Source of the DNA: Eledone cirrhosa
Taxonomy: Eukaryota
Direction: 5' to 3'
Assembly: GCA_964016885.1 (NCBI GenBank)
Contig: OZ024745.1
Span: forward strand, 128,402,001-128,466,000
Length of the DNA stretch: 64,000 nt
Made by a program: the position numbers and the translations under genes. Below are positions 17,474-27,742 of the stretch, piece after piece; position 1 is the stretch's first letter; each line of letters starts with the position of its first letter. The notes under the pieces were generated by a model. It did not search any database. It was not told the origin of the DNA and saw nothing but the letters and a program-made list of their open reading frames with translations.

Positions 17474-17835
17474 ACGGCCCGGCCGACTAACTCACCCGAT
17501 ATGCAAATTAAGCTGCTCAGCCGTTAATATGTATAAGGAAAGTATATACTTTCAAACGTTGAATCATCTGACAGAAAGGTATACGATGCTGACGATAGCT
17601 AATAAGCTTGAAACTAGTACATCGTTCCTGTGTCAGTGTTGAACAAAAGGGCGACGATGGTTGCCGAGCACTGTACGACGTAATTCGGGCCGTTTGTTTA
17701 CAAACAAACCAAACATTATAATAAATGTTCGGTAAACCCATACGTACATATATATATATATGTCTGTGCATGTATGTATATATATACATACTACTGTACG
17801 TCTGTACACATATATGTATGTACGTATACATACTT
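17474..17835 (+). mobile_element. Penelope-pLTR-like module (family A) in (TA)n
   Basis: Homologous to 22030-22315 (+) and 26888-27371 (-); carries a hammerhead. Confidence 0.75.
17583..17625 (+). ncRNA. Minimal type I hammerhead ribozyme (family A)
   Basis: acgatg CTGACGA tagct-aata-agctt GAAA ctag TA catcgt; 6-bp stem I; palindromic ACTAGT stem III. Confidence 0.88.
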
Positions 17836-18585
17836 ATATATATATATATATATATATATATATATATGTGATTCTCATGAAAATTGGAAACCTCGGCGTA
17901 TGGAAACTGTTAGAACAGCAAGATACCGTCGAAGCGGCGTTGAGTAAAATATTACCTCGAAGGACAGAGATCAGCGGCTGGATGTGAGTTGACTCAAAGA
18001 CACGAAGATAAGATAGGACGGAAGAAAATAGTCTAACTAATTGGGCATAAAAACCCCCTTGGACGGAAAAAAATCGACATCGATGCCCGTGGGTCACGAA
18101 CTCACATCTGCCGAACGGCCGAGCTACTGATTGCTCCAAAGCGAGACTGACGAAATTTTCCGTTATTTTGGAATCTTATAAATCTACCAAAATGTAAACA
18201 GTTTTAGAAACGTTGAACGAAAATGTATTTATCGAAAATCGACTTACAAATAGAAGTTTCAACGGTGTTTTGTTTTGTTTTTGTTTTTTTTTTACTATAT
18301 AAAATAGTCATACAAATTAGGCATAAAAGCCCTTGGTTTTTTTCAAATTCTTCCGAAGCCAGCTTTGCTTTTCATCCTTTCGGATATTCATTTGGCGGCA
18401 TTGTTGAAGATTCATAAGCAATATTTTGCTGTGTCTTTCCCCTCAATTTGCATTCCGGTTTTTAATCCAAATGATCTGCGTGTCACTTTGTGTTTAAGAA
18501 TGTAACACGTAGATTTTAACGATCCAGTTTGCATAACCATATATAGCTAACAACAATGCACTTGTTGCTATTTTTGTTTCGTCAG

Positions 18586-18830
18586 CATCATCATCATCAT
18601 CATCATCATCCGGCGGCCTCAGCCGAAATTGACTCAACAATTGATCTCCACGTGGGTCTGTCGTTCATTGCCGTTGTCAAATCCTGGATTTCAATACCAG
18701 ATTCTCTGGAGATGACATCGGGATAGGAGAGCTTGCACCCCCTGTTATTAGTGACTGCTTGTGGTTTCCAAAGCACTAAAGGGGACACAGCCTCATATGT
18801 GGCACGATGGCAGTGGGTCAGCAAATTTTA
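18586..18830 (-). mobile_element. RTE-clade LINE 3' end with (TGA)n tail
   Basis: ORF 18606..18824: HCHRA..E.VSPLVLWKP...RG...SYPDVISR..G....DL..AM.DR..WRS.V, followed by tgatgatga repeats. Confidence 0.8.
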
Positions 18831-20423
18831 TTCTCTTGTTACGTACGACGTCAGATATGCGTATATCTCTCTCAAAGTCAGACTTTAACCAGTTCTGATT
18901 GAGTATGCTTGTGATCAAATGTGCTCCTTGGAAATACATCATACAATGTGTCATTACTTTTATTAAAACGACAGGCTTTAATTTGAAAGAGATTTGTTTG
19001 ATATATCTAACAAGTCAACCGACTTCATAGACGCTCCCTCCTGTGGTTCAATTTGCTGTTGTAGCTCTGATAACTCTATAAAATTTGGTGTGTATTCATT
19101 TTCACATACGAAGATATAGTGCGATAGACAAGCAGCTCTTCTATATTTTATCTACTTCACTTTATGGAAGTCGGAGTTTTCTACCATCCTTATTGGTGCT
19201 TGTTACTCGGGAAGAATTATCCTATTCTGATATACTAACAACGATGTAATTGTTTGTACAAACCTTGGCTCATTTAACATCTTATTCTTGTGACTAGCGA
19301 ATAAAATGAAACGAGTATTCTTGTTGGTAAGGAGGAAAACAACTAAAACGGTGTTCGAATTTCGCATGGATTTGCTAAAAAAGAAATATTTTGTTAATCT
19401 CATCAGAATCATGAAATAAATGTTTATAATATAATGTAGATTAATCTATTGGACTACAATCTCCTTTTTTTTTCTCACACACATTCTCCTTATTTCTCGT
19501 CTCCCTCATTCTCTGTCTGAAGAAACGGGTTCTCTGTACTTCAGAAATCCAACAGTTAAGTGCTGATTAAAAATAAAAACTTGCAACCATCAAACGCAAA
19601 AAATAAAATGTTGCATGAACACAGTTTTTACTTGTCTTACAATTAATGTCAAATGACTTCGACCAGAAATAGCCTGACATGGTTTTCAGTAAACCAGCAA
19701 CTGTTTGGATAGTTTGTCATCGATTACATTGATTTTTCTCCCATCATGTTGCATAGCAACGATTTCACTTTTCTGATGTAGAAAGTCAATCTATATATTC
19801 GTCATCGTTAGATTCCCTGCCATATTGGAAGTAGCCTTGTCAACTAATAACCACAAAATTACCTTCTTTGGGCAGACTTTAAAATGTAAAGGAACTTCTG
19901 TTTTTATATAGACATAGTGAGTGTTAAAACAGGATAAATTACATCTATATCTCTATCAAACAAATATAGTTGGATGTGCCACTGTTGCTTGAAAAGCAGC
20001 TATGTGTGTATGTCAAATAAATGAGAAATATTTTAACGAATCATCAAGTAGTAAACAATTATAAATAATGGCGTCCAAATTGACTTGAACTTTAGTTGCT
20101 ATAAAATGTTGTGACATGCATGCCTTTTCCAATGCATTTGTGAAATATGCGGGAATAAACTAGCTTGGCTCTCTGAAGGTTTGAAGCCACGTCGTTGTAT
20201 CGACATGTTTCCTAGCATAATGTGTCATACATTCGTTGATATGGCTTAATATTGATATTCTTTAATAAGAACAACTGTAGTCTGTTGATTCGATTCCTAG
20301 TATATTACCGATATTTATTTAGTCGACCTCAGATAAATATAAATGAAACACCGATTTGATATGTAAACATAAGTGGACACAACTTAATACAGTAAAAAAT
20401 ACTGCCTAATACTCTGATACAGT

Positions 20424-20713
20424 GGAGGCGCGTGGCCTTGTGGTAAGGGTGTGGGATTTACGATTATAATGTCATGGGTTCGATTCCTGGGCTGGGTTGT
20501 GTGTTGTGTTTTTGAGCAAAACACTTTATTTCACGTCACTCCAGTATACTCAGCTGAAAATGAGTACCAGTAATAGCTGGGGGTTTAACCCTGCGATGGA
20601 CTGGCGTCCTGTCCAGGGGGAAGTTTTGTACTCTCAGTTACTTCACGTCATGGAAACTAGGATAAGTACCGGTCTAACGAGTCTTCTGGCTTGAAATTTA
20701 CTTTACTTTACTT
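20424..20713 (+). mobile_element. tRNA-derived SINE (S2), near full length
   Basis: A-box tggccttgtggt, B-box ggttcgattcc, CORE-like ttgagcaaaacacttta, ccctgcgatggactggcgtcctgtccagggg, (TTTAC)n tail. Confidence 0.85.
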
Positions 20714-25272: not shown

Positions 25273-25346
25273 ACACACACATATATATATATATATGTGT
25301 GTGTGTGTGTGTGTGTGTGTGTGTGTGTGTGTGTGTGTGTGTGTGT

Positions 25347-25500
25347 AAGGGGTAACCACAGTTAGTAAGGTACTCAAAACATCAAGTTTAATATAGAAAT
25401 AGCTTCTACAGGTTTAGAACTGTTTCATTCAAAAGAAATCAATTTCTTTTGAATGAAACATTTCTAGTCCTGTAGAAGCTATTTCTATATTAAATTTGAT
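25347..25500. repeat. Family F tail with ~58 bp-arm hairpin; near-identical copy at ~26578-26733
   Basis: tagaaatagcttctacagg...tttcattcaaaagaaat mirrored; related single arm at ~22560-22675. Confidence 0.85.
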
Positions 25501-26887
25501 ATATATTTCTATATTAAACTTGATATATATATGTATGTATGTGTGTGTGTGTGAGTGTGTGTGTGTGTGTCTGTGTTTGTCTGTGAGTGCGTGTGTGTCT
25601 GTGTGTTTTTATGTGTCTGTGTGTGTGTGAGTGAGTTTGTGTGTGTGTGTATCTGTGTGTGTGAGTGCGTGTGTGTGTTTTGTGTGTGTCTGTGTGTTTT
25701 TATGTGTGTGTGTGTTTGTCTGTGTGTATGTTTGTCTGTGTGTATTTATGCGTGTGCGCGCGCGTGTGTGTGTATATGACGGTTATATATAAATGTGTAT
25801 GAATATATATATATATATATGTGAATATATATGTATGTCTGTATATGTATGTACATGTATATCTTGTGATCAATAAAACAGCCACAAAGTTACGGGTTGA
25901 CTAAAGCTTTGATCTGTTATTCATTACGTAACTAGTTGTATGAGATACTGGTTCTAATGCTACTACTACTACAACTGCTACTGTTATAGTTACTACTGCT
26001 GGTATTGCTACTGCCTCTTCTCTTGCTACTGATCAGGCAGGGACTTTTGATGTTGTTGTTGCTGCTGCTGCTGTAGCTACAGTGTTAATTATGAAAGACT
26101 TACTCATGAAAAGCAATATATTATGTTGTAGATTAGGACTTCATCGGCAGTATTTTAAAACCTGATCGTAAGGTTTTTATTGTTAACAATTCCTGCCCCA
26201 TGCGATGAGACATTTGCATTAATGAATTCAGCATGTTTCAATTACTTCAGTTACTTATGACTTTGAAATGGTATGAGCATTACCACTTCATCTTTAATGG
26301 ATATGTTGGCATCAGAATGTCTCGTTAGCATTTGTGTTTCAATTATGTAGTTGTTGATGTCAAAACTGTATGACTAAGAAGTTCGTTCTGTAAATACGTC
26401 GTTTCAGGTTTGGTATATATATATATATATATATGTGTGTGTGTGTGTGTGTGTGTGCGTGTGTGTGTGTGTGTGTGTGTGTGTGTGTGTGTGTGTGTGT
26501 GTGTGTGTGTGTGTGTGTGTGTGTGTGTGTGTGTGTGTGTGTGTGTGTGTGTGTGTGTGTGTGTGTGTGTGTGTGTAAGTCCCGGGTTCAATCAGGGGTA
26601 ACCACAATTAGTAAGGTACTCAAAACATCAAGTTTAATATAGAAATAGCTTCTACAGGTTTAGAACTGTTTCATTCAAAAGAAATCAATTTCTTTTGAAT
26701 GAAACATTTCTAGTCCTGTAGAAGCTATTTCTATGCGATGATGCACATTTGCATTAATGAATTAGAAGCTATATATATATATATACATATAAATATATAT
26801 ATATATATATATATATATATATATATATATATATATATATATATATATATATATATATATATATATATATATATATATATATATATA

Positions 26888-27742
26888 GTTGAAAAAAAAT
26901 GAAAACGAAATTTCATTTCTCACTCTTAGTACGGCACTTACTTAAATGTAAGTATGTGTGTATACGTACATACATATATGTATACAGACGTACAGTAGCA
27001 TGCAGATATATATATATATGTATATATATACACACACATATACACATATACATACAGGTACACATACATATATGCACGTATCAGTTTAGCAGACGCTTAT
27101 TATAACGCCGCTTTGTTCGTTTGTAAACAAACTGAACAGCCTGAATGCTATGCCGTACGGTGTTAAGGCAACCACGTCACCTTTTTGTTCAACACTGACA
27201 CAGGAACGATGTACTAGTTTCAAGCTTGTTAGCTATCATCAGCACCGTATACCCATCTGCCAGATAGTTGAACGTTCGAAAGTATATACTTTCCTTATGA
27301 AAATTAACGGCTGAGCAGCCTAATTTGCATATCGAGTGAGCTAAGTCGGTCAGGCATACCGAAAACGATGAGTTGAAAAAAAATGAAAACGAAATTTCAT
27401 TTCTCACTCTTAGTACGGCACTTACTTAAATGTAAGTATGTGTGTATACGTACATACATATATGTATACAGACGTACAGTAGCATGCATATATATATATA
27501 TGTATATATATACACACACATATACACATATACATACAGGTACACATACATATATGCACGTATTACAAACGAACAAAGCGGCGTTATAATAAGCGTCTGC
27601 TAAACTGATACGTGCATATATGTATGTGTACCTGTATGTATATGTGTATATGTGTGTGTATATATATACATATATATATATATATATGCATGCTACTGTA
27701 CGTCTGTATACATATATGTATGTACGTATACACACATGCTTA
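26888..27742 (-). mobile_element. Family A module: full ~484 bp unit, partial tandem copy and inverted copy
   Basis: The start of the unit at 26888 repeats at 27372-27560; 27562-27742 is the reverse complement of ~26948-27126. Confidence 0.8.
27206..27248 (-). ncRNA. Minimal type I hammerhead ribozyme (family A)
   Basis: Minus: acggtg CTGATGA tagct-aaca-agctt GAAA ctag TA catcgt; changes preserve the fold. Confidence 0.85.

What the first reader, a model, noticed from the sequence alone, without database searches (positions are those of the whole stretch)
17474..27742. Family A: three hammerhead copies with fold-preserving changes and a 484-bp monomer in partial tandem plus inversion
Differences among the three ribozymes fall at N7 (C/U), loop II, a stem I A-U to G-U wobble and the stem II closing pair, so all keep the fold. 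At 26888-27742 a ~484-bp unit is followed by a partial direct repeat and then an inverted copy, as in Penelope pLTR or retrozyme-type arrays. ACTAGT in stem III suits dimeric cleavage. A circular or monomeric ~480-nt RNA is possible (inference).
Basis: partly seen in the sequence, partly recalled or inferred. Interest (0 to 1): 0.7.

Follow-up and report, generated by a model that had tools for sequence, protein, structure and literature searches.

The report
Penelope-mobilised hammerhead retrozyme, two-armed insertions
These are three of many thousands of copies of a short non-coding repeat with a predicted self-cutting RNA motif, and the ends and mirror-image arms of its insertions match those of this genome's Penelope jumping genes, whose enzyme likely copied it, probably by running round a small RNA circle that has not been observed.

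Summary
The window has three minimal type I hammerheads (two on +, one on -) and, at 26887-27748, a 484-nt unit, a partial repeat and an inverted arm. They belong to one ORF-less family with at least 14,661 exact 29-mer matches genome-wide. Subfamily monomers are 429, 442 and 456-538 nt, so 484 is not the family size. Head-to-tail arrays exist (up to about 47 units), and none of 243 family loci runs into a Penelope ORF. Copies end at two fixed sites about 60 nt apart, mostly in (TA)n. Two-armed inserts use one end of each kind (36 of 39, and 18 of 18 classifiable), as do 4 of 4 two-armed autonomous Penelope-like elements here. Units and opposite arms share one haplotype (median 0.3% apart, against 3.9% between inserts) and copying runs through the cut site. 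This fits a circular monomer template, but no RNA was seen and cleavage is untested: stem II closes with a non-canonical U·U. The mobilising family was not identified. Verdict: a new member of the animal non-LTR retrozymes. The scan reported the same pattern on other DNA of this genome.

The parts
17477..17838 (+). Copy 1 (subfamily A1, 429-nt type): one 5'-truncated arm of about 357 monomer positions, ending at the short fixed end (S), with (TA)n on both sides
17583..17625 (+). Minimal type I hammerhead 1: 6-bp stem I, core at 17589, stem II of 4 bp with U·U closure, palindromic stem III; predicted cut after 17619
   Evidence: cleavage not tested
22031..22315 (+). Copy 2 (A1-like): 5'-truncated, internally deleted after 22207, ending inside the tail (monomer position +245) at a short (AT)n
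22115..22157 (+). Hammerhead 2; private U-to-A change gives a U-A closing pair in stem II; predicted cut after 22151
26887..27563 (-). Copy 3, long arm (young subfamily A3): 1.4 units, period 484, ending at the long fixed end (T, with the roughly 60-nt tail) in (TA)n
27206..27248 (-). Hammerhead 3 (N7=U, loop II AACA, G·U in stem I); predicted cut between 27212 and 27211
27563..27748 (+). Copy 3, short inverted arm, same haplotype as the long arm, ending at the short fixed end (S) in (TA)n
26887..26945 (-). Tail between the S and T ends: one strand of a conserved long-range helix plus a hairpin; likely the reverse-transcriptase recognition signal (inferred)
27323..27330 (-). Octamer-like 8-mer in a 12-nt block invariant across subfamilies and the sister family (also 17501-17508 + and 22033-22040 +); possible promoter element, untested; the 'octamer' label is recalled
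26771..26886 (.). (TA)n target microsatellite left of copy 3 (its other half is 27745-28289)

Best explanation
This is an ORF-less, hammerhead-bearing repeat family (a non-LTR retrozyme) whose insertions carry the end signature of this genome's Penelope-like elements, so it is likely copied in trans by a Penelope reverse transcriptase/GIY-YIG endonuclease, probably from a circular monomer RNA that would be made by predicted dimeric self-cleavage and ligation. Shown: there is no ORF partner at the sampled loci; 3' ends fall at two fixed sites about 60 nt apart, mostly in (TA)n; 5' ends vary; two-armed inserts use one short and one long end; all units and both arms share one haplotype; copying passes the cut site without scars; the hammerhead stems show compensatory changes. 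Inferred: tandem copies are transcribed; two ribozymes pair through the palindromic stem III and cut; the monomer is ligated; the endonuclease cuts both strands of a microsatellite; one enzyme extends each broken end outward from one of the two start sites and runs on for 0.2 to several units; the two 5'-truncated cDNAs are joined back to back. Copies 1 and 2 are older single-arm products, and copy 3 is a young two-armed one. Penelope mobilisation is about 0.85 likely; the circular template about 0.55.
For: Ends: 103 of 116 arms of 150 nt or more end in the two classes (51 S, 52 T; 40 exactly at +274). Arm pairing: of 62 divergent pairs, 36 were S+T, 3 T+T, 0 S+S and 23 had another end; 36 of 39 gives p=1.8e-8 against 50%. 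In the young sample, 18 of 25 were S+T and 7 unclassified (window copy 3 is in both counts). Autonomous elements: RT plus GIY-YIG ORFs, including a young 905-aa family, have the same two ends in (TA)n, and 4 of 4 two-armed inserts are S+T. No ORF: 7 of 243 family loci had any Penelope protein hit, none contiguous with the unit. One template: median difference 0.32% within an arm (68 pairs), 0.30% between arms (48 pairs) and 3.85% between inserts (5,942 pairs); L245 was left out of the within-insert figures. In 13 of 15 arrays of three or more units, no variant is shared by only some units. Read-through: 0 of 115 junctions have an indel at the cut site (one deletion at +7); 4 of 200 arms start near it; 29 of 30 places picked by the downstream 29-mer continue through the ribozyme. 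Structure: 7 of 23 pairs change on both sides, with 1 of 500 shuffles as high. A long-range helix covaries (C-G 53, U-A 39, of 106 units). The sister family, about 70% identical, keeps both ends at homologous places.
Against: No RNA was examined, so expression, cleavage and circles are not shown. The ribozyme has U·U where G10.1-C11.1 is highly conserved, and minimal Penelope hammerheads cleave poorly in vitro (PMC4209133); only 1 of 9 Xenopus retrozyme dimers cleaved (Li et al. preprint). In the one Penelope system studied in vitro, cleavage was not needed and uncut RNA was the main template (PMC11167929). Predicted monomer folds show an alternative pairing of core with stem III. No autonomous element sharing sequence with this family was found among 50 GIY-YIG loci and one full-length element. 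Nearest other inserts are also close (mean 1.0%), so homogeneity alone does not prove a monomer stage at each jump. L245 has 13 partly shared variants and L244 has 2. Most of the covariation comes from one sister-family sequence. Samples are the first places on contig C1 or top hits, chosen by exact motifs.
Confidence: 0.78

Rival explanations
1. Same Penelope machinery, but the template is an uncut linear multimer transcribed from young tandem arrays; the hammerhead is weak or inactive and no circle is involved.
For: Copying reads through the cut site, as uncut RNA would allow. U·U closure of stem II. Uncut RNA was the dominant substrate for anole Poseidon in vitro (PMC11167929). Young homogeneous donors exist.
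Against: Many distinct haplotypes (50 variant types) are each fixed across all units and both arms of an insert; 79 variants are shared by all or all but one unit and only 15 by some. That needs a recurring single-unit bottleneck followed by multi-unit copying. Core and palindrome are invariant while the stems covary.
Confidence: 0.3
2. Ordinary solo or truncated pLTRs of an autonomous Penelope-like element not yet found.
For: Minimal hammerhead, tail, inverted arm and (TA)n targets are all pLTR features (PMC4209133, PMC8557442). Many older copies are under 1.5 units. Only a small part of the 10,597 GIY-YIG candidates was inspected.
Against: Upstream of the ribozyme lies the tail of the previous unit, and after the tail the unit continues into the next ribozyme. 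Arms hold up to 9 ribozymes. 0 of 243 loci join an ORF. An ancestral pLTR origin remains possible.
Confidence: 0.06
3. Arrays grew at DNA level as satellites (unequal crossover or conversion) from short insertions.
For: The 47-unit array has higher-order repeats and a mostly mutated core. L245 shows partly shared variants, including across arms.
Against: Young arrays at many dispersed loci have multi-unit arms about 0.3% apart, intact ribozymes and exact S and T ends. This explains a few old arrays, not the rule.
Confidence: 0.08
4. Linear self-cut monomers are copied by repeated template jumping.
For: This also gives a monomer bottleneck. A few inverted pieces begin at the cut site (L003, L010, L114).
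Against: No pile-up of 5' ends at the cut site (4 of 200) and no junction scars (0 of 115).
Confidence: 0.1

Closest known systems
Metazoan non-LTR retrozymes (Cervera and de la Pena 2020, PMC7229834, passages and Discussion read; Li, Clavereau and Pollet 2026, bioRxiv 10.64898/2026.07.22.740005, parts 1-3 of 5 read, supplements closed)
   Same: ORF-less tandem units with a type I hammerhead in each unit, GC under 45%, monomers to long multimers, co-existing with Penelope-like elements; mobilisation by PLEs and circular templates are proposed there.
   Different: The monomer (429-538 nt) is above the 170-400 nt circles reported. The ribozyme is the minimal, palindromic-stem-III type with a U·U closure. 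In the text read, no two-armed insertions or fixed double ends are described for retrozymes. Circles were shown there and are untested here. No pLTR homologue was found here, whereas 24 of 57 Xenopus families matched known elements, nearly all PLEs.
EN+ Penelope-like elements and their pLTRs (Craig et al. 2021, PMC8557442, passages; Arkhipova et al. 2013, PMC3846280, passages; Frangieh et al. 2024, PMC11167929, parts 1-2 of 4)
   Same: 5' truncation, partial tandems, an adjacent inverted 5'-truncated copy, a tail often present at only one end, microsatellite or AT-rich targets; two internal RT start sites and both strands cut and extended in vitro.
   Different: No RT or endonuclease ORF. The tail is about 60 nt rather than 30-40. 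The exact end shifts to match the target (seven loci end at +267/268 into (TC)n), whereas the anole enzyme started without homology.
Non-autonomous Chlamys elements such as MRC1 (PMC8557442, passage)
   Same: Non-autonomous PLE derivatives that form pLTRs and multicopy head-to-tail insertions.
   Different: Green algal; that clade lacks canonical hammerheads; they share 3' sequence with autonomous families, which was not found here.
Minimal PLE hammerheads (Cervera and de la Pena 2014, PMC4209133, parts 1-2 of 4)
   Same: Type I, 1-2 bp stem III with a palindromic centre, predicted to act as dimers; circular templates proposed for head-to-tail copies.
   Different: Here G10.1-C11.1 is replaced by U·U, stem II is short, and stem I is long and interrupted.

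Membership tests
Non-LTR retrozyme | Tandem repeat with a type I hammerhead in at least two consecutive units | tested here: met
   L066 has three intact cores at period 442; 28 of 70 young arms hold two or more. Window copies hold one each.
Non-LTR retrozyme | No coding capacity; small low-GC monomer | tested here: met
   GC 0.36-0.39; longest ATG ORF 54 aa (A1) and 112 aa (A3); no contiguous RT ORF at 243 loci.
Non-LTR retrozyme | Hammerhead core and stems conserved | tested here: met
   Core invariant in 7 of 7 sequences, with compensatory stem changes; U·U at 10.1/11.1 is atypical; no Rfam match.
Non-LTR retrozyme | Self-cleavage of the transcript | not testable with these tools
   Needs in vitro transcription.
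Non-LTR retrozyme | Expressed as monomeric linear and circular RNA | not testable with these tools
Non-LTR retrozyme | Target-site duplications when present | tested here: inconclusive
   Insertions lie in (TA)n, where a duplication cannot be read.
Penelope-like element (autonomous) | RT plus GIY-YIG ORF between pLTRs | tested here: not met
   0 of 243 loci; no such ORF in the window.
PLE-mobilised non-autonomous element | Two fixed 3' ends (tail), inverted 5'-truncated arm, tail at one end only | tested here: met
   same pattern in autonomous elements
PLE-mobilised non-autonomous element | Microsatellite target bias | tested here: met
   68 of 103 S or T ends pass a strict TA filter; several others run into (TC)n or have the end called a few bases early.
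PLE-mobilised non-autonomous element | Sequence shared with the pLTR of an autonomous partner | tested here: inconclusive
   None in 50 GIY-YIG loci or the 905-aa family; most families were not inspected.
Plant LTR retrozyme | Type III hammerhead in LTRs with PBS and PPT | tested here: not met
   Type I ribozyme in circularly permuted tandem units.

The most novel reading that the evidence does not exclude
A clan of small circular RNAs (this family and its 465-nt sister) parasitises Penelope enzymes through a conserved RNA shape rather than shared sequence. A Penelope dimer primes both ends of one DNA break on the same circle, each subunit at its own fixed start site, and rolls round it. The one-short-one-long rule and single-haplotype arms would be the genomic record of circle-templated, bidirectional target-primed reverse transcription.
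Probability: 0.4. Interest if true: 0.72.

Novelty: new member of a known kind. Interest (0 to 1): 0.5.

Why it matters
Retrozymes have been proposed since 2014-2020 to spread when Penelope enzymes reverse-transcribe small RNA circles. The papers read here argue this from co-occurrence, pLTR homology and the presence of circles, not from insertion structure. This family gives a young, very abundant case in which the Penelope footprint is countable and is matched by intact 905-aa autonomous elements in the same genome. It names two exact start sites, a 430-540-nt template and candidate enzymes, so the circle and two-ended priming steps can be tested in vitro. It also offers a natural hammerhead variant with a U·U stem II closure to assay.

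Tried and rejected
RNA evidence: no RNA holder was listed; two contig runs of unknown kind were laid on copy 3 and only show the family is present. Neither says anything about expression. snRNA-type promoter (newt satellite 2 lead; PMC2220036 passage; the primary paper was not held): upstream regions of this genome's U2 genes had no exact octamer and no convincing match to the monomer, and the element I took for a PSE is a strand of a covarying helix. Rejected as unsupported; the invariant octamer-like block is unexplained. Autonomous partner: Pfam PF26215 is not in the library; GIY-YIG loci overlap the family only as separate insertions (L173, L189, L190, L257); a tail-like hairpin beside one element led to the sister retrozyme family, not to an ORF. 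Lack of variants in the ribozyme was not used, because those loci were picked by a ribozyme motif. The dimer energy script crashed; only a 6-bp self-duplex of -4.8 kcal/mol was computed. The whole-unit fold z-score of -8.45 was discounted, because internal microsatellite palindromes inflate it. The repeat finder was swamped by microsatellites. Rfam miRNA hits are microsatellite artefacts. A paper id recalled for a dimeric-hammerhead study was the wrong paper. Paper searches for this family or taxon with hammerheads or retrozymes and for circle-templated Penelope copying listed no description of it. The library lacks most subscription journals and repeat databases were not searched, so the family may already be catalogued.
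Full report
OBSERVATION. The window comes from a 3.0-Gb, microsatellite-rich animal genome (G000); earlier notes call it cephalopod, which I did not test. Three related hammerhead cores lie at +17589, +22121 and -27242. Each has a 6-bp stem I, the CUGANGA core, a 4-bp stem II, GAAA and a palindromic ACUAGU around a 1-2-bp stem III, with a predicted cut after GUA. At copy 3, 26887-27081 recurs at 27371-27563 (99.0%), giving a 484-nt period, and 27563-27748 is an inverted copy (97.3%). Rfam does not recognise the motif. Three of them separate subfamilies, while copy 2's U-A closing pair is private: 263 of 263 scored ribozymes (282 sites examined) have U·U there.

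FAMILY. Exact motifs count 3,569 (older core), 10,471 (copy 3's core), 14,661 (the 29 nt after the cut) and 21,298 (tail), with 0 for each control. Natural monomers are 429 nt (A1, copies 1 and 2), 442 nt (A2) and 456-538 nt (A3, copy 3); length varies mainly in an internal microsatellite. Tandems are common: a 3.5-mer with intact ribozymes (L066), a 6-mer (L085) and an array of about 47 units with a mostly mutated core and higher-order repeats. Among 70 young arms, 8 hold no ribozyme, 34 one and 28 two to nine. Of 243 family loci, 7 had a Penelope protein hit and none was contiguous with the unit. The closest case, L257, is a unit inserted just after another element's own pLTR end.

PENELOPE FOOTPRINT. 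Counting from the cut site (A1 numbering), 103 of 116 arms end at about +194-222 (S, 51) or +258-276 (T, 52; 40 exactly at +274). 68 of those 103 pass a strict TA filter, and 5' starts are scattered. Seven loci end at +267/268 into (TC)n, so the exact start follows microhomology with the target. Of 62 back-to-back arm pairs, 36 are S+T, 3 T+T, 0 S+S and 23 have another end (36 of 39, p=1.8e-8). In the young sample, 18 of 25 are S+T and 7 unclassified. Copy 3 is such an insert (T at 26887, S near 27745) and is in both counts. The genome is rich in RT plus GIY-YIG elements (10,597 candidates, 150 scored; domains confirmed). These also end at two sites in (TA)n, and 4 of 4 two-armed inserts of a young 905-aa family are S+T. 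An inverted arm and a tail at one end only are known PLE features (PMC8557442, PMC3846280, passages). Two internal start sites and extension of both cut strands were shown in vitro for an anole element (PMC11167929, parts 1-2). No element sharing sequence with this family was found, so the partner is unnamed.

TEMPLATE. In 40 young loci plus copy 3, units differ by a median 0.32% within an arm, 0.30% between opposite arms and 3.85% between inserts; the old array L245 was left out of the within figures. With L245, pooled values are 2.0% and 1.8%, and the nearest other insert averages 1.0%. In the 15 arrays with three or more long units, 79 variants are shared by all or all but one unit, 116 are single, and 15 are partial, all in L245 and L244. 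Many haplotypes, each uniform across units and arms, imply a recurring one-unit bottleneck followed by multi-unit copying (inference). Copying does not stop at the cut site: 4 of 200 arms start near it, 29 of 30 places picked by the downstream motif continue upstream, and 0 of 115 junctions have an indel there. A ligated circle explains all three results. Uncut multimers from young donors explain the read-through but fit the fixed haplotypes less well. I found no A>G excess (12 vs 11 distinct variants).

SELECTION ON RNA SHAPE. A sister family of 464-466 nt (1,630 core matches) is collinear and about 70% identical. It keeps the core and the palindrome, changes stems I and II in compensating ways, has the canonical G-C closure, and ends at homologous S and T sites. 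Across 7 sequences, 7 of 23 pairs change on both sides (1 of 500 shuffles as high), mostly through that one sister sequence. A long-range helix whose 3' strand lies between S and T covaries within the family (C-G 53, U-A 39, of 106 units), which makes it a candidate RT signal. Against activity: the U·U closure, an alternative predicted pairing of the core in monomers, low activity of minimal hammerheads (PMC4209133, parts 1-2), and cleavage in only 1 of 9 Xenopus dimers (Li et al. preprint, parts 1-3). No RNA was examined.

COMPARISON AND VERDICT. It works like a PLE-mobilised non-autonomous element and meets the sequence criteria of the non-LTR retrozymes (PMC7229834, passages and Discussion; Li et al. 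2026). The biochemical criteria are untested, and it fails membership of autonomous PLEs. The two-armed reading came as a lead from earlier notes on other DNA of this genome and was tested here on this family. Whether those notes' 422- and 467-nt units are these subfamilies I could not tell (searches returned nothing). My searches listed no paper on this family or on insertion-structure evidence for circle copying; preprint supplements were closed and may bear on this. New member of a known kind; interest 0.5.

Noticed in passing
window 43459 (+): A single canonical-looking type I hammerhead core with a 4-bp stem II and G-C closure, unrelated to family A.
   Followed up: partly
window 34263 (+), 38753 (+), 9359 (-): A second hammerhead-like family with a longer stem II and a TATATA palindromic stem III, 77-80% alike; further cores at 33099 (-), 32660 (+) and 63582 (-).
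   Followed up: partly
G000:C1:70055940-70076895 (L061-L064): About 47-unit, 442-nt satellite of this family with higher-order repeats, a core C-to-A change in most units and one inverted 5' copy; a retrozyme turned satellite.
   Followed up: partly
L278:1853-1927 and L269-L288: Young sister retrozyme family, 464-466 nt, with canonical stem II closure, very homogeneous two-armed arrays and the same two ends.
   Followed up: partly
L349-L360 (e.g. G000:C4:233387500-233397400): Young autonomous Penelope-like family, 905-aa open frame, unit about 3.15 kb, minimal hammerhead in the pLTR, two ends about 44 nt apart; two-armed inserts are one short plus one long.
   Followed up: partly
window 39929-40450 (+): 173-aa frame that looks like the C-terminal end of a restriction-like-endonuclease non-LTR element (recalled resemblance; no Pfam hit).
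   Followed up: partly
window 25380-25500 and 26626-26735: Repeated long hairpin-forming element in several truncated copies (also near 22560-22610), probably ends of another repeat family.
   Followed up: no
L245 (G000:C1:43087200-43094200): Older two-armed array in which non-mirror units on opposite arms share several private variants, suggesting gene conversion.
   Followed up: partly
G000:C3:307349256-307453739: Tandem cluster of U2 snRNA genes with a period of about 2.2 kb.
   Followed up: no
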